Shown here one piece after another: positions 2,004 to 31,700 of a stretch of 38,053 nucleotides of DNA; the first letter of the stretch is position 1; every line of letters starts with the position of its first letter. The DNA is taken from the NCBI GenBank assembly GCA_002633005.1, contig NMRA01000065.1:13164-51216 (forward strand), read 5' to 3'. The stretch comes from Phoronis australis. Its lineage: Eukaryota; Animalia; Phoronida. Made by a program: the position numbers and the translations under genes. The notes under the pieces are model-generated. The model saw nothing but the letters and a program-made list of their open reading frames with translations. It had not been told where the DNA came from and did no database searches.

Positions 2004-2092
2004 AGGTAGGGGAATCAAAAACATTTCAAAAACGGCATTTTCTAATTGTTCTCGTGAAATCCTTTGGCTGGCAGATTGTATATTTTTTGCAG

Positions 2093-4286
2093 TTGCCAAG
2101 ATGGTAGCGCCGTGCCCATATCGTCCTACTGTGATTACGTCAACGACTGCCTTGATGGAAGTGACGAAGAAAGTTGTACATATCCTGAGTGTTCCGTCGA
2201 TCAGTACACGTGCAAATCTCGACAGTGTATCTCAAAAGACGAGATGTGTGACTTTACGAAAAACTGTTGGGACGGCAGTGACGAGTTTGAAAGCACTTGT
2301 CGCTGGATGGAACGTTGTGAGCAGCTTAACGGATTTAGATGTTTGTCTGGGGATTGCATTGATCCGAAGTTAAAGACTGATTTAAGATATGACTGTCCAG
2401 GTCAACTGCAGGAGGACGAACACTTCCTTGAAGAGGACTATTCTCGCGGAGTTATTAGAACGTCTCGAAATGGCTATCTTCAGCACATTGTAAATCTTCG
2501 TCCGTATTGTTCGAAAGACAACGAAGTTCGATGCTTGCACAATCATCCGTCATGTTTCAACAGAGGTCAAACTTGTATTTTTGATGGGTTCAGCGGGTGT
2601 GCGGATAATAGTCATCTTAAGGACTGTGAAAACTTCACGTGTCCTGGACACTTCAAATGCCCTTTCAGTTATTGTATTCCGAAACACAGAGTATGCAATG
2701 GAGTGTGGGATTGCAACGGCGGTGTGGATGAAACCGATTGTTCCATTTATTCCTGTCCAGGTGAATTCAGGTGTCGCGAAGAACGCAGGTGTTTGGAACA
2801 GAAACTTGTTTGTAATGGTGTTGTTGATTGCAGAAACTTTGGAGACGACGAAAAGTATTGCGATTTGGAAACGCCATGTCCTAGAGGGTGTAACTGCTTA
2901 GCTTATATTCTTTCTTGTGTTAACACGTCTCTTGCAGTTGTCCCCGGGGGATTTATCAATATGCGCGTGATCCAATTTCCGGGAAACAGAATTGTGATCA
3001 GTAATTCCACATCACTTAGGTATCCATATCTAGGCAAGCTAGACTTGTCGTATAACCAGCTGAAGTATTTGCCAGCATTCACCTTTCGAGGGCTTCCGAA
3101 CTTGTTTGAACTGGTCTTAACGGGGAATATGCTGCGTTCTCTGAGCCCCAACACTTTTGATGGATTAGCACTTTCGCTCTTGGACCTCCGAAAGAACAGG
3201 CTCGCAACAATTTCTGCGGACGCGTTTGAAGGGTTGCAAAGTGTTGAGATTCTGCGTTTGCAAGAAAATGACGAGTTCCTTTTCATTGATAAATCAGTCC
3301 TTTTTAATTTAAACGTGTCGACATTACTCACTGACAACTTCCGGTTTTGCTGTTCAGTGAAAACCTCAGTTAACTGTTCGCCAAAAAACGACCAATTTTC
3401 GTCGTGTTCGGATATGATTGCCAACTCCTTCCTGAGGGTGTCCTTATGGGTTCTTGGTACGTTTGCTTTCGCGGGTAACTTAGCTGTTTTTGTTTGGAGA
3501 TTAAAAACGGATAGAGATAAGCCCAATTCCGTATTTTTGATCAATTTAGCACTATCAGACTTGATGATGGGAGTGTATATGATCGTAATCGCCTCTGTCG
3601 ATATGTATTACGTTGCCATTGGTGATTATTATTTACATGATCCAATATGGCGGAACAGCTTCCTTTGTCAGCTGTCAGGGGTGATATCATTTGTAGCATC
3701 AGAAATGTCAGTCTACGTGTTGGCTATCATCACCATAGATCGTGTCATTGCTACAGTTTTCGTATTTAAAGTTCCACCTATGACAAAGGGTATTGGCGTT
3801 GCCTTAATGGTGATTGGTTGGCTTGTTTGGGCAGCTATGGCTTCCCTTCCGTTTTACGTGAGGCACGGTACCTCAGGGAAGACTTTTTATGGCGAAACCT
3901 CTGTATGTCTTCCGTTCACTCTTTCTACTGAGTTTAATTGGATATCTGTTTCCGTTTTTCTTATTTTCAATTCTGTTGCCTTCCTGGTAATATTTGTAGG
4001 TTATTTACTGATTTACGTCAACGTTAAAAGAAGTGCCACTAATGTCGGTAAAAAGTCTGTTGAACAAGATATCAAGCTTGCTAAAAAGCTGAGTTTCATC
4101 GTATTTACCGATTTTTGTTGCTGGGTTCCTATAACAATTGCTGGATTCCTGAGCCTCAGTGGATATCGGGTTTTCCCAGAATTCTCCGCTTGGGTTGCAG
4201 TATTCATAATGCCAATAAATTCGGCGCTGAACCCATATATTTATACCCTTTCTTCATTTAAGGCCAGGAAAAAACGCCAATCGTAA
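2093..4286 (+). CDS. GRL101-like leucine-rich-repeat GPCR (LDLa repeats + LRR + 7TM), terminal exon; 5' part missing
   Basis: Acceptor TTTTTTGCAG ends at 2092 and the frame is open to TAA at 4286. About 6 LDLa-type modules (e.g. CDYVNDCLDGSDEESC, CNGVWDCNGGVDETDC), an LRRNT (CPRGCNC), LRRs (LGKLDLSYNQL, LSLLDLRKNRL), an LGR hinge (FRFCC...FSSCSDMI) and 7 hydrophobic helices with NLALSD, IDR, FTDFCCWVPI and NSALNPYIY motifs. The track's TTG start at 2064 is intronic. Confidence 0.92.
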
Positions 4287-11009: not shown

Positions 11010-11225
11010 ATGCGCGCTCCCAGCCTAAAATTTAAGGGGGCTCGAATTCTTCGATATGCGGACCTTTTACTGAGAAAAATCAACGAAGACTAAAAAAAAT
11101 AAGTAAAAAACCACTGCCACTAGGTTCAGGCCTGTCAGTCGTGCATTCGCGCCGAATTCCTGTGGACTTTGTGGACTCTCGTTTACTCGGACTTTTTGTT
11201 TCACTGAGGCTGACCTTTTTGCCCA
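11010..11225. repeat. Left arm of ~215-bp inverted repeat pair (partner 13167-13383)
   Basis: ATGCGCGCTCCCAGCCTAAAAT...GATATGCGGACCTTTTACTGA...CCACTAGGTTCAGGCC...TTTTTGTTTCACTGAGGC is the reverse complement of 13167-13383. Confidence 0.8.
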
Positions 11226-13166: not shown

Positions 13167-13383
13167 ATGGACAAAAAGGTCCGCCTCAGTGAAACAAAAA
13201 GACTGGGTAAACGCGACGACAGTCCACAAAATCCAGGGGAAGTCGGCGCGGATGCACAATTCGTGGGCCTGAACCTAGTGGCTCCAAGTTTTTTTAGTCC
13301 TCGTTGATTTCTTTCAGTAAAAGGTCCGCATATCGGAAAATTCGAGCCCCGTCCTCTATATATTTTAGGCTGGGTGCGCGCAT
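13167..13383. repeat. Right arm of ~215-bp inverted repeat pair (partner 11010-11225)
   Basis: GCCTCAGTGAAACAAAAAG...GGCCTGAACCTAGTGG...TCAGTAAAAGGTCCGCATATC...ATTTTAGGCTGGGTGCGCGCAT. Confidence 0.8.
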
Positions 13384-13733
13384 GAATCCTATCGTGGTAA
13401 TTACTATTTTATGAGAGTAATCGACATAATTCGATTTTCCTTTTTACGTCACGGTGGCGAAATGCAGCCCAACGAGCATTCGGGTTTATGGCATTATTTA
13501 CACACGGTACAGTATTTACGGCTCTGACGCTATTATAGTTAATAACAATTAATTTCCGAACATAATTTACGAAAGTAACATTTGTCCACGAAATGCGAGT
13601 CTCGCTGAAGCCACTGACAAGTCAGTCCAGTGACCAGTCATTTATGCCCAAAAGAGTGACGCCTCCAGCTCGGAAATCACAGGCTTCACCAATGACTGAG
13701 AGATATTTGTAGCTCATTGGGCTTCACAATCTA

Positions 13734-13798
13734 CTCGCTGGTTCCCTACGTGCCCAACCAGCTGGCTACCCCCTAGCGGCACACAGGGAACCAGCGAG
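13734..13798. repeat. 65-bp palindromic mini-element just upstream of the PDE12 ATG
   Basis: CTCGCTGGTTCCCT...AGGGAACCAGCGAG (14-bp perfect, ~21-bp imperfect arms), flanked by AATCTA on both sides (13728-13733, 13799-13804). Confidence 0.7.
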
Positions 13799-13849
13799 AA
13801 TCTATTGAAACTCTTCAGTTGCCGGAGGTAAAAGTTGTCATCCACTCCA

Positions 13850-14007: not shown

Positions 14008-17000
14008 GTAGGTCATAATGTTGGTTACCCGCTTACGGGTTCAACAGCAGCTTAACGCCAGACAACAACCGTCGTCAGTGTCCGTCATTGAACTGTGGCT
14101 GGTGAACAGCTGAGCTGAATGACTGAATCAGGTTATAAAATGTGGAGAATTAATCTGTATGGGGGCTATGTTGTAGATGTGCTTCCGGTGAATTATATGA
14201 GCCTCTGTTAGCTATTCGCTAACGGGCAATTGCCTATTACTAGCTGAATGGTTAGCACGCTTGCCGGTTTTATAGGGGTCGCTGGTTCGATCCCCGGGCC
14301 GGGTAATCTCGGCTATTACTACAAATGGCGTAGTCGGCAAATGGATGATCTACCGATGAAGCACAGCTGCCAACTAGTACCCACGGATCTTGGGACGGCG
14401 CGCGTGGAAGGTTCCAGGAGTCAAGGACCTGTATGAGAGACTACCTTGTGTTCACCTGTGTTGTGGTGGTAAAGGTACCAAGGGACGTTGATGACCTGTA
14501 TGCGAGACATCCTGGTGTTCACCTTCCTGGTCGCGTGCCTGTTTCGTAGGAAAGGGGGGAATGTTGTANTCCCTGGGTCGGTTAATCTCGGCTATTACTA
14601 CAGCTATTTTGCCTTAGGCTTGAGGATCATGGATTGACAGCTCTCGCGTGTCGAAAAAAATGTTTCATTATTCAACTTCAAGTAAATTTTATTAGAAGTA
14701 CAAGCATATACTGTTATTGTTATATAACAGAAAAAAAATAGTGGGAAGTTTTTAGTTAGTGAAATGACATTTCTCCAAGTATGTTGCTGTGTCGTGAACT
14801 TGTTTGTTTGAGTGATGTAGGTTGCATTCATTGTCTGATCGATATGAAATTCTCGTGTACAATGGGTATATTTCCTCTATAGCTCAAGGCCTTTTACTTT
14901 TGGACAAAATCTGACCAAAGGTGGCACTGTGATGGCCATTTTTCAAAGTTTTGTTTCTGCAGAACTCATCAAGGGCTATAGAAAATGTGTTATCAGAACA
15001 TGCATGTAAAAAATCCACATTGCCTAGAAAGGAGTCAGGGTGGTTTCTGGCATGTTGTCCATGCATGTACAGCAGTTGGCAAAAGGCCAATTGCCCTCTG
15101 GTCAGCATTTCAGAGGGGCACATGCAACAACTAGATTTTTTTTCCACAAAAGTCCTCAGAAGAATAGAGCACTGCCAGGCGTCAGTTCTTAGAATTGTCC
15201 CTCATGTTGGACCCGTCACTGTTCACAACTCCACAATGTGAGCATCTCACATTTAAGTAACATACATGTTTCTCGTTTTCTCATGGTCCCTACCTGGAAA
15301 TTGACTCCAGTTTCGCCACTCAAGGACCTTTACCATTCCACCTAAGAGCAATTGTCTGAAGGTCAAGTGAATTAACACTGTCTAGACAATCTATCTGAAG
15401 TCTTGCTACAGATTCTCCATGCTATTCCTCATTCTAAGAACTTATGGGGGCTGCCTGTAGGTCCCCTTCAGAGCACTTATGGCATTTAAGGTGTAATGGA
15501 ATTTACTATCTGACCAATCCCCTCACCATCCACCATGTGATCCATCCCTGCCATTGTGAGTTGGTTCCACCAATGTTGAAAAAGTCATTGAAAGATTTTG
15601 TTGGTCCAGCAAGATATCGAACCCGTGATCCCCGGCACCAAAGTCACGGATCTTTTAAGAATAGTTTAAACTAGTATACGACTTAAGAGCTGTTGCTTCT
15701 GGTGAGCAGTTCTGTGCTTCTTAAACTTTCATAGGAAGGAAATTTAAGGAATATTTTTACAACCTGAGTCATGTAATGAGATTGCCTACAGTACAGAATA
15801 TGTTTTTGTTTGACAATGAAAACAAACTCTGTCCATCTTTTACAGGTTACCTGGTAAAAAAGAGAAGTCGTTCAATTTAAACAGGCTTAAAAGTGAGGAG
15901 CTTGGTAAGTGTTTGGAGCGAATATCTTTGGGCATTTCCAAATTTCTTGCCAGCAAAAAGAAGAAGAGAAAAGATCAAGACGATGACACTGGGCAGTCAG
16001 AAGTCAACGTGTGTTTATTTGATGGTGACAGTAGGGTGGATGAATGCACTACCAATGTTGAGGCATGGCTAGATGGGTCAAGGTTAAAACTCAATGATTA
16101 TGAATATTCCGTTCTGGTAAATGTTCCAACTGTTACTTCACTTACTTTACCGCAGAATATCATGGCTGGCTTTCCTGTCTTTCCCAAGTATGACTTGGAA
16201 TTTGCTGAAGTGGAGGAGTGCGTTTTCACATGGAGCAAATCTAGAAGCATAGACTGTAGTAGTGTTGGTGGCTCTACAGTGGAACGGAAGTCAGAGTTTG
16301 ATCGAAATTCACTCGAATCAGCAGACGGATGTAGTGAATTTAAAGAGGCTGGATGTGGACTATATTACACGCCCTCTGTGGACGATATAGGTTGCCAAAT
16401 CAAATTGTCATGCGAGCCAGTGCAGGGAAGGAGGCGTGGTGAGATTATGACTGCAGTGTCAACTCAAGTGGTGGATGCGGGCCCGGGGCTGTGTCCATTT
16501 GAAGATCGACACAGTTATACTATGAAAAGTACGATGGAAGGATGGTGAGATATTGACATGTTCTTTATTGCGTCACTCATGCCTGCTTCACTTTACAACT
16601 AGAGTGCATCCTCCAAAAACTATTCTCATTGAAGCTGCTCGACTTCAGTTTTCAAATACGATTTTAGAAATGAAGCAATGAGTCAAAAGAGTTCAAAATA
16701 CAAATTATGAACTGTGCATTTAACTGCGGTCTTTTAAAGTTACATTATATGCTGTTTACAAATAACCAAAAACTTTTTCTTTCCTTTTTTGGCTTGAAAG
16801 CTCTGTTGATAATAGAAAGTCCATGTTTGATAATTTTAGTCATAGGTAATGATTTTCAGTAAATAGTATCATTTGTTAGCATTTGCAATTCTAACATTTC
16901 ATGACACTTAAAACTTCACATGTGACTAAGTATAGACAAACATAGATTCACATCGAATATATTGTTTAGTATTCTTATTATAATATCTTAAGTTTCTAGA

Positions 17001-20000
17001 TGCAAAGTTGCTTGGTTGTTTTTTCTAGCAGCTGCCACTTTGACCAAAATAGGATGTTTTTATTTATTGATTATAAACTTTCTTGTGTGTGCTTTCAGTC
17101 TGCGTATGGTATCTTACAATGTACTAGCAGATTACTACGCTGACTCGGACTTCTCTAGAGAGCACCTCTTCCCGCAGTGTCCACCCTATGCATTGAATAT
17201 TGACTACAGGAAGCAGCTCTTTCTAAAAGAAATTCTAGGTATTGCCATTCTAACGTATGACCCGATGAATATTAGGGCAATGGTCTGATATAACGTGCCT
17301 GCATTTTGAGAACCAGTTCATGCCCATTATTCAGTGGAGAAAACTGGTTCTCAAAATGCGGGCATGTTTTATCAGATTATTTCGGATATTGATTTTGATT
17401 TATACACTCGGCTTTTACAAAGAAGTTTTGTAAAATTTTCTCATCAGAATGGAGAAATTGTAGTTGACAATTTATTGATGGCTTTGAAGAATCATTGCAT
17501 ACTAAAACTCATGTAAGTTGCTTAAGTGGGAATTTAGCTTAACTCGGAAACAGTTGTTCTAGTTTTTGCACTCAGCCATTAAGATAAGACGAATTTTGTC
17601 ATACTCGGACAAACCCTCACGATCTGATTGGATACGTCTAAATGCAAGTTTGATTGTATTAATTTTGTTTTAAATGTTCAATTTTTATATTGGTCTGGAT
17701 ATGTTTATTGTTGAGTAAGAGGGATGCTTGGCTAATGTCAATGTTTATTCATATTTTTGTGATTTATTTAAATGTCAATGTTTATTCATATTTTTGTGAT
17801 TTATTTAACATTTGCAAACCTTTTTTGCAAGACATATAATTTATTAGTTGAATACTTTTATCAGGGAACGCTCAAAATATGTCACTTAAGAGTTCTAGAT
17901 ATAAACGCTGTGTTACTAAGTGGACGGTACTTTGCACAATAGTTGTTCACTACAGTTTCTCGGTCTTCACAGGTTACAATGCTGACCTCATCTGTCTGCA
18001 GGAGATGGACAAGCGGGTGTTTCACAGTGACCTATCCCCTGCCCTCCATCTACTGGGCTACAAGTCTCTTCTCAAACAGAAGGCAGGCCAGGTGCCAGAG
18101 GGATGTGCAATGTTTTTCAGGGAATCCAAGCTAAAGTGAGTTTCCAGCTGCAGGTGAATGTTTTGTCTTTGCTCTTACTTGACTGCATAACTGTGAATTT
18201 AATCTGAGAACTGGGACCCGAATCAGCCTTGAAATGTAAACAGTCACACTGCGTGATTTGAGTACACAATGTTTTAAGCTGGGCTTGAAATTTTCCTGTT
18301 TTATGAGGATTTCCTCTTTTTTGGTTTCATTGTTCTCTTGTTCGATTTCCAGTTTCCCCTCTTCATCTCTTGTTTATCATTATTTTACTTTTATTCAATG
18401 TAAAAATGATTATTTCAGTTAAATTTTACAACACAATATATATATATTTCTATCTCAAGCCTCTTTTGTGGAAGGATACATCATCTGGAAATTTTTCCGA
18501 TCTCTTTTTTTGTCAGTGGTCATTCCAAGCCCTTTTCAAGTTATTGGGAGCGTGAAGTGCAATTTGTCAAATTTCTAGTCGAAATTGGAATGCGGATATT
18601 AAACTGCAGTTGTGGGGTGTGTTTCATGAAAAGTGAGTTAGGACTTGGATCACTTGAGCAAAAGTCAAAAGTCTCTGAGAATGCACACGCACTTGCTTAG
18701 TATTCACATAATTTCTATGAGTTGTTTCTGGACTATGATATGCTCTTAATTACTTATTTAACTAAACCTTTGTTTAGCAGTTGTGAATTTAGAGCGTAAG
18801 ATCAAATTTCTGTCTTAAGTCTTGGCTCACTTTTCATGAAACAGACACAACCTCACGAGTCTGAGCAATGTTCCAAGTTCTGGCAATTTCAAATTTTGTC
18901 ATTTTGATAGGCAATTGAAGTACTTTGAATTACTGAAGATTTTGGTGTCACACACCTGCAAACGCTTGAGCAGAATCTCTTACAATTACACTTGCCTGTT
19001 CTCCTCAACCCCTTTGGGCTCAGGGCAGTAACAAGTGTGTTGCCCTAATGGGTTTGACTTGCTTGCATTGAGTTTAGAAACTCGATATGAACAAATTTCA
19101 AATTTTTGGAGTGTGGTCATTTCTTAAGGAAATTGGGACATTTTGATCTTCCGTCACTCATTCAGGACACTTATTCCTATACTTATCATATTAACCATCA
19201 TAATGGGGTTGACAAATGGTGCTTGTAAGTGGGTAACCTAATTTCCGTCGGGTGTGAATGTCCTGTTAGGAGTATCAATTTGAAAATTGTGTACTTATGT
19301 CCTGTCTAATAAATCTTGTTTAGAGTCTGATTCCAGCCATTACAACACCCAAGTCTATGATGCACTAGTTGGATGTTGTGGTATTAGATTGTAACTAAGA
19401 CTGGGGAACTTAGCGACTAAGTCTTTATTTCCAGGTTAGTTGCTCAACATGATGTAGATTTCTCAGATTCCCTGGGGAATGATGAAGCGTATGAGGACCT
19501 GTTGGAAGCTGTGAGTCGCAGCGAACCCCTCAAGACCAACATACTGGCTAAGAGTACCACATTACAGGTATTTGTATAGTCGAGAGTGTTGTTCAGTGCC
19601 ATGTTTTACACAATGGCTAGTGTCGACTGTTTTCGTTTAAATTTGCAATCTTTGCTTTGAATAAAGGATGTTGACACTTGTAGTTTTCTATTGGTTACAC
19701 TGTGGTCATGGGACGATGTTATTTTTGTCTTGATAAACTGCTTCATTCTGATTAAAATGTTGGTCCATTACTGTCCTACTGATATCACAATTCTTAGTAT
19801 AAATTTAATTGATCATAAAAAAGAAATTTTCATGTTTCACTGTTGGTAGGAATAGTACTTTGACTCATTTACGCAGCCCTGAAAATTTGCACAGGCACTG
19901 TCAAGTTGATCCAGAACAAGTTGTGTTTGCACGATGTCTCACTTCAGAACAGCTTGTGTAATGTAAAATCACTTTTCAATTTTTCCTCCTTCGTCGTTAT

Positions 20001-23000
20001 GAGAATTACTATGTACTGCATAATTATTTGAATTCACATGCCTTTATCCTGAATAATGTGTTTTTTAAGAATCTTTTGTACTCAAGGGTTCACAGAATTG
20101 TGTGCGCCTAAGTTTTCAGAAGAATTACCTTTCATGTTCACTCATCAGGTGGCAGTACTAGACTATGTTGAGAGACCAGGGAAGAAGTTGGTTGCCATGA
20201 ACACCCACTTCTACTTCCATCCGAAGTCTGCACACATACGACTCATTCACTCTGCAATGGCAATGAGACACATGGAATACGTGTGTGAACTGTATAAAGA
20301 TGCAACGGTAATGTGCTTTGTGTGATACTTTTCTGAAGGAAGCAAAATGAATAAACTTTGCACAGAATGGTCTTGGAAGGAACTTAAGCCTAGTCCACAT
20401 TTCAGGACAATTGTTGGAACTAGGCAAATTTTGCTATTCTTTTAGCAAAGATCATGAAGTGACAATTACCACCGAATGTTTCAATAATGACATGTTTTGG
20501 CAAAGCCATCCTCAACTGACTTCGTTTATTGATCGACATTGGTGGACGTATCCTCTAAAACATGTCACTGTTGAAACGCTGTTGTCATTATTCAAACATT
20601 TTTGGTTTTGCGATTGAAATTTTTCTCCCATAAAGTCAATTTTCAGGGATATGAGCTTCAAATTTACATTTTTATTAGCAACCAAGAAATCTCGCTTGTT
20701 TGAAAGTCGCGGGCACAAGCCCCAGTTTCTAAGACTATGTTAAACTTTGTTGTTGGAATTTTAGAAGTTTTTCTACAGTTATGTCTTTTGAATAGATTGC
20801 GTTAAAAGTTGCACTTCTTGATCAGCTGCTTTGTATATTAATTGACTTCGATGGTCCATTTGTCCTTACAAATCAATCTCATTTGATTAAAGGATAATGA
20901 GATTGGATTTCATTGTTCAAAATCATTGATTGATGTTTGAGTTTCAGTTTGTTTAAACCAGTGTGTGATGCTGGTTCAAAAGTAAACATCAAGTATTATC
21001 GCCTGCAACGTTTTATTATAGATCGTATTCTGCAAATTCTTAATCTGTCATTTAAAACTGAACGGTTTGTAAAAACATCCAGTGGAATTTTCTACCCCGC
21101 AGATAATTTTCTTTGAAACAAGTTCCTCACAACTTAACACAGCCTTGAAATGTGAGGAAAATTAGTTTTGTAATATTGTGCTTTGTTTTGTCCTGACTGT
21201 TCAGTGACTGAATATTTTTCGTAAGTTAATGTTTGGTTACTCATTGATTCCAGGGTGAACCTCCTGCTGTGGTCTTCTGCGGTGACTTCAACAGCACTCC
21301 AGAAACAGGCTTTTATACATTCATTACAGATAATCGCCTGATGGCTGATCACCCTGACTGGTGGGCAGGTTTGTATGATTTTTTTGGCAGCATGTTGTGA
21401 ACTATTTTAAGTTTGCAAATATTAGAATAAGTGAGAGGAGGCACTGTGGCGTAGTAGAATAAGCAGGACTTGGAATTTTCCGCGGAAACGCGGATTTCCG
21501 CTTTTTTGAAATGTTCTGTCCGCGCATTTTATTATATTTCCGCGTAAAAAAAATCGGATTTGATATAAAATTTCCGCAGTAAATTCCTTTCTTACCGCGG
21601 CGTTGCCGACGACGTTCACCTCGAAAAGCGGAAGTTTCTCTTTATGTTTCGGAGGAACGTAAATTGTCAACATTACCGGGGCATCTGGGATAGCGTGGTG
21701 GCATTTTCAATGGCGTCTCGTGTGATTGTAAACCGCGGTGACAAATACTACGGCTCTGCAGTCAAAAATGTGTGGGGGTGGGAGTGGAGGATTGGATGGA
21801 TGAGATAAAAAGACGCAGTCGCACGCCACTGATGGTGGTAACGTTTTTTTTTTTTTAGTCCTACCGAATTTTATCGGCGAAAGGTTCACAAGGCCGGGTA
21901 GCGCGCATGTTTTGGGCCGTAAAAGTTTCCGCGTTTTTTGTCTTTGGTCATTTCAAGCCCTGAATAAGTGTCCACTTCCTTCACTCAAGGTCGCCAAATG
22001 GAAACTCAGCATGCCAAAACAAGGAAACCTACGTGGATTTGCAAAGTCTTGTCCCCTGTATATGACTAACTAATAGTTGGCAAGAGCCAAAAATGAAATA
22101 AACGAGATACCTGAAGTGAAAACCTGGTGAATTGGCAAATGTCCAGCAGACTAAGAGAGCCTAACAGGAGTGTATTGCATGCTCAGTAACGACCAATCTC
22201 CCCCTTGCCTTGTGTCTGTTTCCTTCCTGCAGTAATGAATGGATGCTCGGATGTGTGCTTGGCGACATCGTGGCGACCTGGGATTTTTACCTGCAGGCCG
22301 CCAAATTAAGCCCTGCAGACCGAGTTTAAAAAGTATATTTTATAAAGCCATTTTCAACGGTACACTGCAAATTTTCTGTATTTGTATCAGAGATTTTATT
22401 GAGCGTCGGCCATTGACTGGGTCTGATTTATGTTCAAAATGTATGTTTGATTTCACTTTAGGCCAGAAATTTGTCTGACTCATTTCCGGGAATGGTGTAG
22501 ACAGAATCCATGTTCATGTTTGTGGCAAACTTGACAATTCAATGTAAAGAACTAACTCTGTTGGAAGTTTTTTTGTTTTCTCTGTCGATCAATTTAGGCC
22601 AACGTTACGGCGTTTTCCCGTTGAGACCAACTTGTTCGATTGTATAGCCCAACCAGCAGTTGGGAAGATGACTGCCATATCCAATACCTTACACGACTGA
22701 TTAACCCCATTCTGGTGTTTATGGTTGAAGGGCCAGCTCTCTTTTGTTCGATAATTGCTCTAATCTCCGATAATCTCTCGCTAGCCTGACTGGGCTGTGC
22801 TGTTAATAATAAAAGTTATAAGTTATAACATATTTGAACATAAACCAATAGCATTTCTGAATTCCTCGTCAAATGCTGATGATGTTTAGTTTTTGAATTA
22901 CCAAAATTGCCCAACTACAACTGAAGTTATGACACTCTATTATTTCCGAAGATACCAATTCACACTGGGTTTGACTGTGTTCAGATGTGGTCGGTAATAA

Positions 23001-24407
23001 GCCTGGTAGATAATTGGCCTGCATGTTGTCATACCAGACAAAAGACTGTGCTTGGCAGTTAACAAAGGAGCTAGATGTTATCACAGGCTTACAACTGCTC
23101 TGTCCTGTTAAGTCACGCCCTAATGAAAGTTTGGTCGCCATACTCCAATCTTAATAGGTGTTGCTTATGCATTTCTTACTTAAACGAATACTATCGGTTG
23201 TTTTGTTGCATCTTTCAAGTCATCATCCAATCAGAATTGAGCACATCTCATAAATTTTTAATGAGTTTCGTTGGCTGATCCAATATGTATGATTACTTCC
23301 TGTGAAAAACTGCCATGCTGTTCACAACTCTTTGCTGTGACAGCAGCAGAGCGCTATATTTGCGTGTTTGGGGGAGTAATTCCGGCATTTTGTGTTTCGT
23401 CTATAGCAGCTTCTGTTATGATATGACATGCGGATTTGGCACATTGTAGTGAACATTGAGTTTTGTCGTTTGCTTCGCAAAATCCTAAAGAGACTGGATT
23501 TGGCCAATTGAAATAAAATCTCAAGTGTTTTTTGAGTTGCTAATGATTTTGATATTCTACTTTGTAAACGGAAATAGAAATAATAATATCACATTTTGTC
23601 CTGGCCAAATTTGAATTTTGGCTAGCTAAACACTGCAAAATACAACTTTTATTTAACGGACTCCTAAAATGGCCGTGAAGAACCATAAGATTGAACTTGG
23701 ATTGGATGATCTTCAAATTGGATAATGGGGTAGGAGTAGTATCCATGTACACCAGATGCCATTGTGATTTTTGTACAGTGACGCATTTGAAATTGTGGTC
23801 TAAACGAGCCGAGTTTTATAATGAGGGCGGAACACAATTTCTTTCATTCTCAGACATTTCACAGCATTGGACTTTTTTACCTAAACATTCCACTGGACAA
23901 CAATGGGGATTCGACTACTTTGGGATGGGAAAGAATTAAAAAAAACGTGATATTGCACTTAATATTCTTCTCCCAAGTTATTAAATGTAGGAGGCGATTT
24001 ACGTTACTTTATTTTCGAAATACTCCAACGCCATCTAACAGAGCAAATTTCATTGTGTCGCCGGTATATCAGAAAATGGCTGTTGTACAAACTGTCAGTT
24101 AACTGCTCTAAATGGCACGCATGTATTGGTCATTTCAGAGGGCGGGGAAGAGTACTTTGGTGGTCTGGATATCCAACACAACTACAAAAAGTTACTAAGT
24201 GCATGTGAGACACCTGCATTTACCAACTTCACCTGCGGCTTCCGCGGGTGCCTGGACTACATCTTCATAGATTCCAAACACCTGGAAACAGAACAGATTA
24301 TCCCTCTTCCTAGCGAAGAAGTTGTCACCCAGCATATTGCTCTGCCGAATATTGTCTTTCCATCAGACCACTTAGCATTAGTTTGTGATGTAAAGTGGAA
24401 GGACTAG
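13850..24407 (+). CDS. PDE12: 2',5'-phosphodiesterase 12 (mitochondrial deadenylase, EEP/CCR4-nocturnin family), 8 coding exons, 611 aa
   Basis: Exons 13850-14007, 15846-16544, 17099-17238, 17973-18135, 19435-19567, 20149-20307, 21254-21368, 24139-24407. All introns are GT-AG and phase-compatible; total 1836 nt. Motifs: VRC..S....MSF N-terminus, YTPSVDDIG, GPGLCPFEDRH, SYNVLAD, ICLQE, NTH, CGDFNS, GCLDYIF, FPSDH. Confidence 0.93.
14169..14602 (+). mobile_element. TRIM (miniature non-autonomous LTR retrotransposon) with tRNA-like sequence in the LTR (Helenus-like)
   Basis: 5' LTR 14169-14323 (TGTTGTA...TACTACA). PBS TGGCGTAGTCGGCA at 14326-14339. PPT AGGAAAGGGGGGAA at 14548-14561. 3' LTR 14562-14602 is shortened across the N at 14569. 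TSD GCTA at 14165-14168 and 14603-14606. A box TAGCTGAATGG at 14241-14251 and B box GGTTCGATCCC at 14284-14294. Confidence 0.85.
15846..16544 (+). CDS. PDE12: PDE12 exon 2
   Basis: Acceptor CTTTTACAG, open frame LPGKKEKSFNLNRLKSEELGKCLERIS...GPGLCPFEDRH, donor TG|GTGAGA. Confidence 0.9.
17099..17238 (+). CDS. PDE12: PDE12 exon 3
   Basis: Acceptor CTTTCAG; LRMVSYNVLADYYADSDFSREHLFPQCPPYALNIDYRKQLFLKEIL; donor G|GTATTG. Confidence 0.92.
17284..17376. repeat. Foldback hairpin (~35-bp arms) in PDE12 intron 3
   Basis: TCTGATATAACGTGCCTGCATTTTGAGAACCAGTT ... AACTGGTTCTCAAAATGCGGGCATGTTTTATCAGA. Confidence 0.75.
17734..17808. repeat. Perfect 37-bp tandem duplication
   Basis: AATGTCAATGTTTATTCATATTTTTGTGATTTATTTA x2 (starts 17734 and 17771). 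Confidence 0.9.
17973..18135 (+). CDS. PDE12: PDE12 exon 4
   Basis: GYNADLICLQEMDK...KAGQVPEGCAMFFRESK; AG/GT boundaries. Confidence 0.92.
18279..18534. mobile_element. hAT-like MITE (same family as 21464-21962)
   Basis: CTGGGCTTGAAATT ... GGTCATTCCAAGCCCT; flanks TTTAAG/TTCAAG. Confidence 0.5.
18617..18848. mobile_element. MITE with ~30-bp TIRs (PIF/Harbinger-like)
   Basis: GTGTGTTTCATGAAAAGTGAGTTAGGACTT ... AAGTCTTGGCTCACTTTTCATGAAACAGAC. Confidence 0.65.
19435..19567 (+). CDS. PDE12: PDE12 exon 5
   Basis: Acceptor TTTCCAG; LVAQHDVDFSDSLGNDEAYEDLLEAVSRSEPLKTNILAKSTTLQ; donor CAG|GTATTT. Not in the ORF track; phase-compatible with both neighbours. Confidence 0.85.
20149..20307 (+). CDS. 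PDE12: PDE12 exon 6
   Basis: VAVLDYVERPGKKLVAMNTHFYFHPKSAHIRLIH...; donor ACG|GTAATG. Confidence 0.9.
21254..21368 (+). CDS. PDE12: PDE12 exon 7 (catalytic GDFN motif)
   Basis: GEPPAVVFCGDFNSTPETGFYTFITDNRLMADHPDWWA; acceptor TTCCAG, donor G|GTTTGT. Confidence 0.9.
21464..21962. mobile_element. hAT-like MITE (~500 bp) in PDE12 intron 7
   Basis: CAGGACTTGGAATT ... CATTTCAAGCCCTG, with AATAAG directly on both sides and internal TTTCCGCG subterminal repeats. Confidence 0.65.
22605..23115. mobile_element. Copy 1 of a ~520-bp MITE family (right TIR lost)
   Basis: Collinear with 24760-25260 along its length (TTACGGCGTTTTCCCGTTG...GGCCAGCTCTCTTTTGTTCGATAATTGCTC...GCTAGATGTTATCACA). Confidence 0.8.
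24139..24407 (+). CDS. PDE12: PDE12 exon 8 (terminal)
   Basis: ...FTNFTCGFRGCLDYIFID...HIALPNIVFPSDHLALVCDVKWKD*. Confidence 0.93.
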
Positions 24408-24759
24408 CAGGCTATACGTTGTACAACTACTTATGGACATCACACACAGTTCCATTTTTAAAGACCTCTGTCTGTATTTCTTGGAATGTATGTCAGAGGG
24501 CAAGTCTAATTGTTCACAATTAAACTGTGGGTAAAATTGATTTGCTGTTGTTTAAATTTGGTCAGCTCTACTTTAATTTCTAATCTTATGATTACTTTAG
24601 GCTCATTATTTTATTCATAAAGTGTCTTGTCAGCTACTAGAATCACGGATTGTTTCTGATGGAAGATCTGTAGAACCCCTGATTAATCATATGTTAATTA
24701 TATTTTCTTTCTCCAAAATGTCATTAACTTCTAGGAGCACTTCGCTGCTCTCTAGCCAT

Positions 24760-25286
24760 TACGGCGTTTTCCCGTTGCTCCCAACTTGTTCAATTCCATA
24801 GCCCAACAACAGGTTGGGAAGATAACCCCTGTAGCCAATATCTAACATGACTAAGTCCATTCTGGCATTATTAGTAGGAGGGCCAGCTCTCTTTTGTTCG
24901 ATAATTGCTCTAATCTCCAATAAGATCGTGTCTGTCCTGACTGGACTGTGCTGTTAAAAATTAAAAGTTAAGCTATAACATATTTGAACATAAATCAATA
25001 GCATTTCTGAAATCCTCGTCAGATGGTGATCATGTTTAATTTTTGAATCGCCAAAATCACCCAACTACAACCGAAGTTACCACAATCTATTTTTTCCGAA
25101 CGTACCAATTCGCTTTGGGTTTGACTGTGTTCAAATGTGGTCTGTAATAAGCCTGGTAGATAATTGGCCTGCCTGTTGTCATGCCAGACAAAATACTGTG
25201 CTTGGCAGTTAACACAGAAGCTAGATGTTATCACACACTCACAACCCTCTATGTCTGGTAAAATCACTCAACGGGAAAACACTGTC
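24760..25286. mobile_element. Copy 2 of the ~520-bp MITE family, both TIRs present, downstream of the PDE12 stop
   Basis: ACGGCGTTTTCCCGTTG ... CAACGGGAAAACACTGT; direct-orientation homolog of 22605-23115. Confidence 0.8.
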
Positions 25287-25873: not shown

Positions 25874-26627
25874 CTCTGTCTGTCTGGCGTCTGCTGCTTT
25901 ATCTCCAAAATCCTTTGATGTACGTTCATGAAATTTTCCACAATTAGTGTTCCTTTCACGGATTGGACAGCATGAGCGAACTTTTGGACAGGTCTGATTA
26001 CCAATGTGCCCCCTAGTGGCAATTTTATTTTTTTATGTTTACCTCAGTCTGTATTTTCAAAGGTCCTCAAATGATTTTCATAAAATTTGGGAAATAGGTA
26101 TCCATTAGTGGGATGACATTACCCTCCCATTTTCGGGTGGATTCGAGGTATTTTGTGCTACTTAGTGGTCAGTTTTAGTGTTTTCAAGTCTGTTTTTTGG
26201 CGTTGCCCCTTTATCAACCAAACCACATTGAGGGTGTTGCTTCTATATCTGCCAAACCATGCAGAGGATCATGAAAATTGGTAAATGTGTCCCTACTGAA
26301 AAAGAGCATGACTGATGTGGGTTTTCAAATGGGTCCAATTACTGTGGTGCCCTCTGACTTTTTTCACATCAACGTTGTATCTCGTATAACCCTTGCAATT
26401 TTTTTTTTTGAATTTTGCGATTGCATTCCTAATGGCAGTTTTTTATTGCCTTCGCTTCCTTGGAATTCTTTGAAGGACTTTTTTTAAATTTGGCAAATAG
26501 TTTTGAGAGACGATACCTTCCTATTTTTGGATGGGTTCAATGTATTCTGAGCCATCAATTTAAAAGCATATCCATTTGCGGAGCAGGCATGGATGCATTT
26601 CAACGCTCTGCGTTGCTCTTGTCTAGT
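25874..26627. mobile_element. HINE/pearl-like non-autonomous element with internal tandem repeats (inverted relative to 28760-29950)
   Basis: Starts with a CTGTCTGTCTG microsatellite and ends CATTTCAACGCTCTGCGTTGCTCTTGT. The reverse complement matches 28763 (ACAAGAGCAACGCGGAACGTTGAAATG) and 29230-29940. Confidence 0.65.
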
Positions 26628-28455: not shown

Positions 28456-28728
28456 TTATGGACCAGCATTCATGGGACCGACAATCAACTGATCAAAATC
28501 GACTGTTAGATGGGCGTTCTTCATATCGCGCAGAGTGCGTAGATAGTCGAAGGACATTTTGTGATTGACGTTGGCCAGCCCTAAGGTACTGTAGAGATCT
28601 CTGAGGCCGTCTGAACGAGCATTCTCCAAGGTGGCTGTGTAGTTTGCATTGGCTTTTGACAGGATCAGTGTAGCCTGTGCAGTTGCATTCTGCTTGATCA
28701 CTTGTGCTTGGTTGTGTATTTCATTTAC
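28456..28728 (-). CDS. SPFH protein, last exon
   Basis: Acceptor TTTACCCCGCAG; [19 protein letters not shown]...[15 protein letters not shown]. Confidence 0.85.
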   Translation of the reverse strand, partial: VNEIHNQAQVIKQNATAQATLILSKANANYTATLENARSDGLRDLYSTLGLANVNHKMSFDYLRTLRDMKNAHLTVDFDQLIVGPMNAGP

Positions 28729-31700
28729 CTGCGGGGTAAAGAGATTCAAAACATTAGTAACTACAAGAGCAACGCGGAACGTTGAAATGCGCCCATGAAT
28801 GCACCGCGAACGGAGTGCGTCTAGGGTTGATTATTTGCATCGTAAAAATGATCACTAGATGGCGCAAAAATGTCCAATACATTCGAAAATGGGAAGTCCC
28901 ATCCCTTCTCTAATTACTATTTACCAAAGCTGTCACGGATCTTCAGAGAAACAAAGAAAAACAAAAAAAAATTAAATTGCCACTAACGTGCACAGCATTC
29001 CTTGGATCTGTCTAAAAGTCGTCATTGTTTGTTAGCTTTATAGAGATACACTCACTAAATTTAATAAAGATTCTGCAGTGGGCGTAAAATAAAACTACCA
29101 CTAGGAGGCACCACAGTATTCAAAGTCATCGCCAACCGTCCTTTTCACACTGAGAACATATACGCCAATTTTCCAAATCATCTTTAGAATTGATTGGTTG
29201 ATAGATGGTGGCTTCAGAACCAGCAAAAATGGCCAGTAGGTGGCGCAAAATACCTCGATTTCATCCGAAAACGGGAGCCGGGAGGGTAGTGTCATCTCAC
29301 CAATAGATGCCTGGATTCCAAATTTTATGAAAATTCGTTAAAGACCTTTGGAGATACAGACTGAGGTAAATGTAAAAAATTAAAATTGCAACTAGGGGGC
29401 TCACAAGTAGTCAGATCCGTCCAAAAGCTGTGGTTGTCTGTTGCCAATATCATATAAATACACTTGCTAAATTTAGTAAAGATCTTACAAACGGTTTAGG
29501 AGATATAGCCATGGCCGCAAAAAAACAAAAGTGCCACTAGGAGGCGCCGCAGTAGTCAAAGTCATTGGAAAATCATCGACAGCTGTCCTCTTCCTAGTAA
29601 GAACAAACATGCCAATTTTCACAATCATCCTTAGAGCAGTTTGATTGATAGAAGTGTGGACACCAAAACAGTAAAAATGGCCATTAGGTGGTGCAAACTA
29701 TGTCGAATCCATCCGAAAATGGGAGGATAGCGTCATCTCACTAATAGATGGCTATATGCCATATTTTATGAAAATACATTGAGGACCTTTGAAGATACAG
29801 AGGTAAATGTAAAAAACTAAAATTGCCCCTAGGGGGCACACCGGTAGTCAGATCAGTCCAAAAGTTTGCTCATGCCGTCCCATTCATGTGATGAACATAC
29901 GTCAAGCAGGTTTGGAGATAGAGCAGCGGACACTGCCCAGACGGACTGAGAAGGCGTGAAATGTCTGTAAAGACTGCCCAGTTGAGCTGACAAAATAGTC
30001 TACTCGTGAAAAAGTATTTCAACTATGAACTCAGGTACGTTAATTTACAACAGGTGCTCTAAATGTCTATCGTCAGCATCTAAGTACAACTAGTGGTTTT
30101 GAACAAAAAATACACGCTGATCTATGGAATACATGAGTCGAGTGCAAAATTGACACTCTGTCGAAAAATGGTGAAAAGCGGCGTTGAACACTTTTCGTAC
30201 CGAGCGCTACATTAGCTCCCTAAGTTCAAGTAAAAAAATATTAGCAAAAGTTGTTTAAATGACAATTTTCAACTGCTATGTAATGAACAGCTGTTGTAGA
30301 GTTTTGTGATATATCTTTAAGTACTGATTATTCCTCATTTCCATTCTCGTGGAAATCTCAATCAAACTTGGCATTGGAGTGTCGACTGTCGAGCTTAACT
30401 AGTTTCACGCTGACTGACTGACACATAAACACGAAAACATGAAATCTTTATGACTATTGAAATCATACGTCTGGAAACTTTCTGTTCTGTTTATTGTTGT
30501 AGAAATAACTTAGCATAGTGATCGTACCACTACAATATTAGTACTTAAACTGCAGAGTGAAAAAGTCAATTTAAACAGTAACTCAGTTGAGGAGCATTTG
30601 ACTTTAATAAAAGAACCTTTGTCACTGTCTATCATGGCACAGTAATTCATCTAGCCAAGAACCTGAAGCCATGGTCATACAGTTTTGTGTCCGACATATG
30701 AACCACTAGACTGGCGCTAGACTTTTATAGCCAAAATGGCTAAAGCATCTGAAAACGTTTAGCCATTTTCAAAAATTATTAGCTTATTTTACTATCTCTT
30801 TTCGCAACTCCCACAATTGATTAATAATACATAAATTCGATCTTCCCGGCATCGTCCGCGCCTTTTACTCCTTGAAAAGAAAATCTGTAAGTGTCAAGTC
30901 TCAAATAATATTTAGCACGACAAATTATGCACTGAAAATTGGTAAAGCTACTATTTGAGTCAGCTCAACTCAGTTCAGTCTTATCCCTTGGGTAACTTAA
31001 TAACGTCAGACCGCCTCACACCATATCGCGAGTTTAAAAGTTATTGAGAGACTGGATTGCGTTTGCCACTGAAATACTTTCTATTTGTTGTTTTGCCACT
31101 AGCAGACGACAAGCGGCAGCACATTTACGACATCTCGCTATGAAGTGAGAAATGGTAAAAGAGTGATTTCAGGGGGAGTGACGAACATGAACATTTGCTC
31201 GTTATTTTTAGTATTTTGAATCCAAGGAGATTGTCATTTGAGATGCAACTTGATTCGAGCTGACTGTGAGTCGACTCGCGAGTAGGTTTCCCCAAAATAT
31301 CTGTATTGTCAAGTTCCGAAAGTATTCAAAAAGTTTGCAAATAGACTTAAGTTAGCTCTACCATCGCCACTGCCGCTCAGAATTCACCAATAGCGAGCTG
31401 GCGAGCGGCTAGCACAAGCCTAAAACCACAAGACATGCCTTTCAGTCTTACCTCCTGTTCAGTTACTTTCCTAACAACCTGTGCCTCTTGGATGAAAACC
31501 TCCTTGCTGTTCTCTTCATTGAGAACAAGAGCTTGTAGAAACCGGTCTTCTACATCAAATGGAATGTTGATATAGCCCAACTGGAAGTAACCCACGGTTG
31601 CATAGAGTCCAAAGTTAGTGCAGGACGATCGAGGAGTACAGCCAGGCACACAGTTACCTACAAGAAACAAACATGAAGAGAATTACTCTGCGTTTACCAG

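What the first reader, a model, noticed from the sequence alone, without database searches (positions are those of the whole stretch)
14169..14602. Miniature LTR retroelement carrying a tRNA-derived Pol III promoter in its LTR (SINE/LTR hybrid)
Seen: a 155-bp TG...CA LTR containing tRNA-spaced A and B boxes. The PBS lies 2 nt after the LTR and matches 14 nt of the tRNA-Ser 3' end (…TGCCGACTACG-CCA). The non-coding 238-bp interior has a duplicated ~32-bp motif (GACCTGTATG.GAGAC...GTGTTCACCT at ~14427 and ~14493). The PPT abuts the 3' LTR, and the TSD is 4 bp (GCTA). Established: Cassandra TRIMs use a 5S-derived Pol III promoter in their LTRs. From memory, the recently described Helenus group has tRNA-like LTRs and 4-bp TSDs in animals. 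Inference: a member of this rare class, probably a new family, transcribed by Pol III and mobilised in trans by a Gypsy-type element with the same Ser primer. The internal duplicate may be a packaging/dimerisation signal. It would be mis-annotated as a pseudo-tRNA or SINE.
Basis: partly seen in the sequence, partly recalled or inferred. Interest (0 to 1): 0.8.

Follow-up and report, generated by a model that had tools for sequence, protein, structure and literature searches.

The report
Helenus mini-retrotransposon with self-pairing RNA start
This is one copy of an abundant, gene-less jumping element whose end repeats carry tRNA-type promoter boxes (the Helenus type described in 2024), and it shares with published fish, bivalve and ribbon-worm relatives a short self-complementary stretch that likely sits at the start of its RNA and would let two RNA ends pair for packaging or copying.

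Summary
The element is real. It has a 155-nt TG...CA LTR with A and B boxes (0 of 20,000 shuffles), a 14-nt tRNA-Ser PBS, a 238-nt interior with a 32-nt duplicate, a PPT and a GCTA TSD. Only 40 nt of the 3' LTR are assembled, around one N. Reads from the same organism show the N is a collapsed gap: sister copies run from the PPT into a full LTR, and dozens of contigs leave the LTR ends into unrelated flanks. It is a new family of Helenus (Kojima 2024); this scan noted Helenus families before on other DNA. One addition I did not find in print: a self-complementary 10-mer, preceded by a hairpin, lies just before box A. By eye, 54 of 76 published non-insect animal Helenus LTRs have such a stretch at this place, with 14 different perfect 6-mer cores and G-U pairs tolerated. 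It begins where Pol III would likely start. I infer an RNA-RNA pairing signal and a shared origin of these families. Not shown: Pol III transcription, the Gypsy helper, TSDs of other copies, the host phylum. A T4 run inside the LTR argues against simple Pol III read-through.

The parts
14165..14168 (+). 5' target-site duplication (GCTA)
   Evidence: flank-to-LTR junction held by a 428-nt single-copy contig with 0 differences (X1 record 1)
14169..14323 (+). 5' LTR, 155 nt, TG...CA
   Evidence: 63 and 32 contigs of run X1 leave it into unrelated flanks exactly at 14169 and 14323
14173..14195 (+). U3 stretch predicted to pair with the PBS-proximal interior (14346-14370); possible cyclisation pair
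   Evidence: duplex -22.6 kcal/mol; windowed test 3 of 300 shuffles, whole-segment test 0.23 of 2000; post hoc and weak
14207..14223 (+). hairpin, 6-bp stem and 5-nt loop, matching the TAGC-loop-GCTA module of fish, bivalve and nemertean Helenus
   Evidence: fold; the common read variants here, 14213 and 14215, lie in the loop; a smaller C>T at 14223 keeps a G-U pair; comparison by eye
14225..14234 (+). perfect 10-nt palindrome (12 bp with G-U) at the likely Pol III start; predicted RNA-RNA pairing signal
   Evidence: two-strand fold -21.0 vs -9.8 kcal/mol for two monomers; not significant alone, 3220 of 20,000 shuffles; position kept in 54 of 76 published LTRs (by eye)
14241..14251 (+). Pol III box A
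14268..14271 (+). T4 run between the boxes, the only one in the assembled element; possible leaky Pol III terminator
   Evidence: mostly kept in reads (14270 T>A in about 2% of X1 depth)
14284..14294 (+). Pol III box B
14326..14339 (+). primer-binding site, 14 nt, for the 3' end of a tRNA-Ser
   Evidence: host tRNA not available for a direct test
14426..14457 (+). internal 32-nt repeat, copy 1
   Evidence: other copies span both repeats without gaps (X1 records 5-7)
14493..14524 (+). internal 32-nt repeat, copy 2
14548..14561 (+). polypurine tract abutting the 3' LTR
14562..14602 (+). 3' LTR, collapsed: 7 nt + N + 33 nt (about 114 nt missing if it is full length)
   Evidence: contigs of the 3' flank begin at 14570, and loose letters behind 14568 continue like the 5' LTR
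14603..14606 (+). 3' target-site duplication (GCTA)
   Evidence: LTR-to-flank junction held by a single-copy contig (X1 record 8)

Best explanation
This is one aged copy of a dispersed, non-coding LTR retrotransposon family of the Helenus type, with tRNA-type A and B boxes in its LTR, a tRNA-Ser primer site, a polypurine tract and a 4-bp target duplication; it is likely transcribed by RNA polymerase III and likely copied and inserted by the enzymes of a Gypsy element. Shown: the anatomy, the multi-copy dispersal, the full LTR behind the PPT in sister copies. Inferred steps: (1) Pol III starts 12-14 nt before box A, so the RNA would begin with the palindrome. (2) Some polymerases pass the T4 in the 5' LTR and stop in the 3' LTR, giving a short R region (about 45 nt if they stop at the second T4) with a palindrome at each RNA end. 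(3) The palindromes pair with each other, between two RNAs (dimer for packaging) or between the two ends of one RNA (first strand transfer). (4) A host tRNA-Ser primes the minus strand, the PPT the plus strand, and a Gypsy integrase leaves the 4-bp duplication. Many copies later recombine to solo LTRs.
For: Anatomy. Family: 1091 contigs of run X1 lie on the LTR; summed depth is 7e4 to 2.2e5 against 35-41 on the unique flanks (rough, not a copy number); depth falls to 1.4e4-2e4 just past the LTR into the PBS, below the half expected without solo LTRs. PPT-to-full-LTR joints in 3 of 3 DNA runs laid and in RNA reads. All of Kojima's Helenus criteria that can be tested are met. Close likeness to published animal Helenus: 20 nt around box B found exactly in Helenus-5_PeMa; 18 of the first 21 nt from the PBS match Helenus-2_PiNo, which also has an internal duplicate (by eye). 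Promoter boxes kept while the D-arm and cloverleaf are lost. Palindrome position and covariation in 54 of 76 LTRs (five of six motifs re-found by text search). Alu start 12 bp before box A (PMC4333407). Palindrome-driven dimerisation shown for Ty1 (PMC6844567 abstract).
Against: No pile-up of RNA starts or ends in 3 of 3 RNA runs; 70-77% of laid reads run on into unrelated sequence, so they mostly come from host transcripts. A T4 run 44 nt after the predicted start could end Pol III transcripts inside the 5' LTR (T4 is a canonical terminator). No helper element could be sought: no genome is held. No contig spans this locus. The palindrome is not significant in this sequence alone (16% of shuffles), and a minority variant at 14227 breaks one pair (about 2% of X1 depth, but 100 of 186 reads of one strand in X7). 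The 54-of-76 tally is by eye on related consensus sequences, and 22 of 76 lack the layout.
Confidence: 0.75

Rival explanations
1. A Helenus-type TRIM whose template RNA is made by Pol II or host read-through. The Pol III boxes would give only a short RNA ending at the T4 in the 5' LTR, or would act on chromatin rather than make the template.
For: T4 between the boxes. RNA reads are mostly read-through, on both strands, with no start or end pile-up. Many published Helenus LTRs also carry T4 just behind box B (by eye). Cassandra arrays give read-through transcripts (PMC7215508 passage).
Against: The boxes are perfect while the tRNA fold has decayed. The palindrome starts at the usual Pol III start offset across families. 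The interior has no T4 (weak, roughly even odds by chance). The RNA libraries may not keep small Pol III RNAs.
Confidence: 0.15
2. The family is real but this locus is mis-joined: the gap hides a tandem array, or the interior was pulled in from another copy at what is a solo LTR.
For: Single N; no contig spans the locus; the short-read contigs break 28 nt and 33 nt inside the LTR ends. The 5' flank ends in a G-run that resembles the PPT.
Against: Identical 4-bp TSD on both unique flanks. The two LTR ends differ at 3 of 33 letters, which a solo LTR duplicated by the assembler would not show.
Confidence: 0.07
3. An ordinary TRIM with a tRNA-derived SINE inserted in one LTR only, or a SINE or pseudo-tRNA next to LTR-like ends by chance.
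For: The boxes of this copy's 3' LTR are not assembled.
Against: Contigs run through the whole boxed LTR and end at its CA without a PBS (3' or solo LTRs, records 2, 3, 5). PPT-to-LTR joints. No SINE tail and no inner TSD. The same layout is in published Helenus LTRs.
Confidence: 0.03

Closest known systems
Helenus TRIMs / TRIMp3 (Kojima 2024, PMC10886601; whole main text read, supplement parts 1, 5, 6, 7, 10, 11 of 11 read, the rest only text-searched)
   Same: Short non-coding two-LTR element, tRNA-like A and B boxes in the LTR, PBS, PPT, 4-bp TSD as in animal families; sizes (LTR 155, interior 238) close to the mussel Ser-primed families Helenus-2_MyGa, -2_MoPh and -2_LimFor (LTR 141-156, interior 226-268).
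   Different: Sequence not among the published families (5 of 5 short motifs absent; the palindrome absent). PBS fits a different tRNA-Ser 3' end than those in Fig. S2. The host seems not to nest with the molluscs, vertebrates or arthropods in a weak tree. The paper does not mention the hairpin, the palindrome or dimerisation (0 occurrences) and favours multiple origins.
Helenus-2_PiNo / -3_PiNo (Pinna nobilis) and Helenus-5_PeMa (Pecten maximus)
   Same: PiNo-2: 18 of the first 21 nt from the PBS alike, long interior with an internal duplicate, similar box B region. PeMa-5: 20 nt around box B identical, same hairpin + palindrome + box A order.
   Different: Different palindrome letters, different duplicated motif, different U3; Kojima assigns the PiNo PBS to tRNA-Glu.
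Cassandra and Ajax TRIMs
   Same: Pol III promoter inside the LTR; Cassandra's RNA starts and ends inside the small-RNA part with an 18-nt terminal repeat (as summarised in PMC10886601; the 2008 paper was not held).
   Different: 5S-derived promoter and 5-bp TSD (Ajax); no 5S match here.
Ty1 PAL1/PAL2 dimerisation palindromes and CYC5/CYC3 cyclisation pair (PMC6844567 abstract; PMC7969010 passages)
   Same: Self-complementary stretch near the RNA 5' end; PBS-proximal sequence able to pair with the 3' end region.
   Different: Ty1 is an autonomous Pol II-driven Copia element; the functions are tested there and only predicted here.

Membership tests
Helenus (TRIMp3) | Non-coding TRIM, short (under 1000 bp screen) | tested here: met
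   about 548 nt if the 3' LTR is full length; longest ATG frame 62 codons
Helenus (TRIMp3) | Two LTRs, both with the tRNA-like part | tested here: met
   met at family level (PPT-to-full-LTR joints); for this copy only 40 nt of the 3' LTR are assembled
Helenus (TRIMp3) | Box A (TRGCY...YGG) and box B (GGTTC) at tRNA spacing | tested here: met
   14241-14251 and 14284-14294; 0 of 20,000 shuffles
Helenus (TRIMp3) | PBS for a tRNA 3' end just behind the 5' LTR; PPT before the 3' LTR | tested here: met
   tested against human tRNA-Ser, host tRNA not available
Helenus (TRIMp3) | 4-bp TSD (animal families) | tested here: met
   GCTA on both sides of this one copy; flanks of other copies could not be read
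Helenus (TRIMp3) | tRNA-like part is not a functional tRNA and not its own primer | tested here: met
   ARAGORN 0; no Rfam tRNA row; no LTR-to-PBS match in the self-comparison
Helenus (TRIMp3) | Transcription by Pol III (unvalidated for the whole group) | tested here: inconclusive
   no start or end pile-ups in 3 RNA runs whose library selection is unspecified
Helenus (TRIMp3) | Gypsy helper sharing the PBS | not testable with these tools
   no genome held; collection scans gave no LTR element
Cassandra / Ajax | 5S rRNA-derived promoter in the LTR | tested here: not met
   no 5S row at E up to 5; boxes are of the tRNA type
tRNA-derived SINE (SINE2) | Starts at the tRNA head, ends in an A-rich or simple-repeat tail, no LTR ends | tested here: not met
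   repeat boundaries in reads are the TG and CA LTR ends; no tail
Ribozyme-bearing LTR element (retrozyme or twister-Helenus of earlier notes) | Self-cleaving ribozyme in the LTR | tested here: not met
   no ribozyme row in Rfam at E up to 5; only 29 nt lie behind box B; no hammerhead core by eye

The most novel reading that the evidence does not exclude
Most non-insect animal Helenus families (coelacanth, sturgeon, carp-like fishes, bivalves, ribbon worms and this host) descend from one old LTR cassette: hairpin, self-complementary 8-13-mer, then box A. Their Pol III RNA begins with that stretch, and it is a sequence-free, covarying RNA pairing signal that dimerises the RNA or joins its two ends for strand transfer. 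It would explain how a parasite with no LTR likeness to its helper gets packaged and copied with a very short R region.
Probability: 0.45. Interest if true: 0.68.

Novelty: new member of a known kind. Interest (0 to 1): 0.48.

Why it matters
The element itself adds one family, with a tRNA-Ser primer type not listed before and possibly a new host group, to a class published in 2024. Such LTRs can be mistaken for tRNA pseudogenes or SINEs. The covarying palindrome matters more. Kojima states that it is not known how TRIMs stay dependent on their helpers, and that no Helenus promoter has been validated. A 10-nt self-complementary stretch at the predicted RNA start, kept in place with changing letters across phyla, gives two simple bench tests (RNA 5' end; dimer formation with scrambled and compensated letters). 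It also speaks against many separate origins for the animal families.

Tried and rejected
No whole genome is held, so copies, TSDs of other copies, host tRNA-Ser and Gypsy helpers could not be collected. A slight excess of one read direction at the LTR-PBS junction (36 vs 20, 35 vs 23, 34 vs 9) cannot be read, as strandedness is not on record. A step in depth near 14220 in run X6 alone was not seen in X5 or X7. Host lineage: PDE12 searches and a quick tree left the host on a long branch among bilaterian invertebrates, with no starred group holding it and no named echinoderm, annelid or brachiopod reference; best identity 46% to a limpet. The Atlas search did not run. Ribozyme idea from earlier notes: not supported. 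U3-to-interior pairing: significant in one test, not in the other, kept only as a lead. Paper searches for a prior description: Helenus + TRIM since 2024 (8 listed, 3 relevant), five-term palindrome search (0 papers), passages of PMC12859917, PMC13570524, PMC6934838: none describes it. Repbase and Dfam could not be searched, so a family entry there is not excluded.

Full report
Observation. The PBS is the reverse complement of the last 14 nt of human tRNA-Ser(UGA) (one passage of PMC3299991). Box A at 14241 and box B at 14284 are the only A-B pair in the window; 0 of 20,000 shuffles of the LTR gave the strict pair (the consensus patterns are recalled and agree with Kojima's TRGCY, YGG and GGTTC). 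No tRNA gene is called. The weak point is the 3' LTR: 7 nt, one N, then 33 nt.

The gap. No genome is held, so I laid public runs of the same organism (the DNA runs may be the source of the window and are one sample). A single-copy contig joins the 5' flank to the LTR with 0 differences, and another joins the last 33 nt of the 3' LTR to the 3' flank, starting exactly behind the N. The N therefore marks a collapsed repeat. Sister copies go from the PPT into the start of a full LTR: joint 14560 to 14168 in 3 of 3 DNA runs laid and in 12 RNA reads from 10 starts; the loose letters behind 14568 continue like the 5' LTR. No piece spans this locus, so two LTRs are shown for the family and inferred for this copy. 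The two LTR ends differ at 3 of 40 comparable letters, so this copy is not recent.

The family. In run X1, 1091 contigs lie on the LTR; 63 leave it at 14169 and 32 at 14323 into unrelated flanks (agreement 0.35 and 0.38). Summed depth is 7e4 to 2.2e5 on the LTR against 35-41 on the flanks. The tool warns that this is no copy number; it points to thousands of LTR copies at most roughly. Depth falls to 1.4e4-2e4 just past the LTR, which suggests many solo LTRs. Most laid records are under 95% alike to this copy, with many C>T and G>A changes at CpG sites. Other copies span both internal repeats without gaps, and several joints show shorter interiors sharing the same LTR. TSDs of other copies could not be read.

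Membership. I read the whole main text of Kojima 2024 and 6 of 11 parts of its supplement. Every testable Helenus criterion is met. The family is not in Data S1 (5 of 5 motifs absent), and its PBS type is not in Fig. S2. It is close to the bivalve group: 20 nt around box B occur exactly in Helenus-5_PeMa, and 18 of the first 21 nt from the PBS match Helenus-2_PiNo, which also has an internal duplicate (by eye). Earlier notes of this scan record other Helenus families in other genomes; I did not test them.

An added feature. Just before box A lie a hairpin (14207-14223) and a perfect 10-nt palindrome (14225-14234). Alone the palindrome means little (3220 of 20,000 shuffles). But I went by eye through all 76 non-hymenopteran animal LTRs in Data S1. 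In 54 (18 chordate, 33 bivalve, 3 nemertean) box A opens with a T-run, and all 54 have a self-complementary stretch of 8-13 nt directly before it: 48 without a centre letter (G-U allowed), 5 with one unpaired centre letter, 1 with an ambiguity code. They show 14 different perfect 6-mer cores; this window adds a fifteenth. A random 6-mer is a palindrome about 1.8% of the time. The families are related, so 54 is not 54 events, but each new core needs paired changes. The other 22 (18 bivalve, 3 Lingula, 1 ctenophore) lack this layout; insect and fungal families were not tallied. Five of six motifs were re-found by text search (line breaks hide some). Changing letters speak against a DNA-binding protein; tolerated G-U pairs point to RNA; paired centre letters cannot form in a hairpin, so they point to pairing between two copies. 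The paper has 0 occurrences of palindrome, hairpin or dimer, and my searches found no other description.

Mechanism. Alu transcripts start 12 bp before the T of box A (PMC4333407 passage). In the published LTRs the palindrome begins about 10-15 nt before that T, most often 12-14. In this family many copies are 3 nt shorter at 14238-14240 than the window (about two thirds of X1 depth), which gives 13-14 nt. So the RNA would likely begin with the palindrome. If it ends in the 3' LTR behind the second palindrome, both ends carry one. Two copies fold together at -21.0 kcal/mol against -9.8 as two monomers. Ty1 uses 5' palindromes for dimerisation and mobility (PMC6844567 abstract). I infer the same role, or end-to-end pairing for strand transfer. 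A second, weaker lead: the interior behind the PBS can pair with the start of U3 (-22.6 kcal/mol; 3 of 300 shuffles in a windowed test, 0.23 in a whole-segment test), like Ty1 CYC5/CYC3 (PMC7969010 passages); fish Helenus show a 13-14-nt match of this kind by eye. Priming by tRNA-Ser, plus-strand priming at the PPT and insertion by a Gypsy integrase follow from general LTR biology and from Kojima's PBS comparisons; no helper was identified here.

Against. Three RNA runs show 444-517 reads on the LTR, on both strands, 70-77% running on into other sequence, with no pile-up of starts or ends. They show host read-through and give no support for an own transcript; the libraries may not keep such an RNA. 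A T4 run at 14268-14271 is a canonical Pol III stop and lies 44 nt behind the predicted start; the model needs it to leak. A minority variant at 14227 breaks one palindrome pair. Collection scans found no relatives. The host is an animal (PDE12 with introns, GRL101-like receptor), but a quick tree did not place it, so a new host group is possible and not shown.

Verdict. A real new family of a known, rare class; interest 0.48, carried mainly by the covarying palindrome, which is testable by simple means. Unread supplement parts (2-4, 8, 9: fungal and insect families) do not bear on the 54-of-76 tally but may bear on how wide the feature is.

Noticed in passing
window 13721-13811: A strong 91-nt hairpin (-41.8 kcal/mol; inverted arms). 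Its part 13761-13798 is a high-depth repeat in DNA and RNA runs with a sharp right end at 13798. Possibly the end of another mobile element; weak miRNA-family Rfam rows are below the gathering scores.
   Followed up: partly
window 15820-24404 (+): PDE12 gene with at least seven coding exons; the element lies about 1.2 kb upstream of the first matching exon, on the same strand.
   Followed up: partly
window 2058-4286 (+): 742-codon intron-free frame of a GRL101-like receptor (LDLa repeats, LRR, 7TM).
   Followed up: partly
window 28456-28830 and 31377-31682 (-): Two frames that look by eye like exons of an SPFH/band-7 protein; not tested.
   Followed up: no
Kojima 2024 Data S1, fish Helenus: The 13-14 nt directly behind the PBS are complementary to a conserved U3 stretch in the carp-like fish families; a likely cyclisation pair not mentioned in the paper.
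   Followed up: partly
Kojima 2024 Data S1, Helenus-2_PiNo and -3_PiNo: Their PBS and leader resemble this element's Ser-type PBS, so the paper's tRNA-Glu assignment may instead be a tRNA-Ser; both have internal duplicates.
   Followed up: no
reads on window 14169-14568: Joints from 14341, 14364, 14509 and 14531 back to the LTR start point to subfamilies or deletion forms with shorter interiors that share this LTR.
   Followed up: no
window 22605-23095 / 24759-25245, 11010-11225 / 13168-13383, 25948-26184 / 29086-29897, 618-790 / 1834-2003: Other dispersed repeats of 170-490 nt at 76-93% identity within the window; not classified.
   Followed up: no
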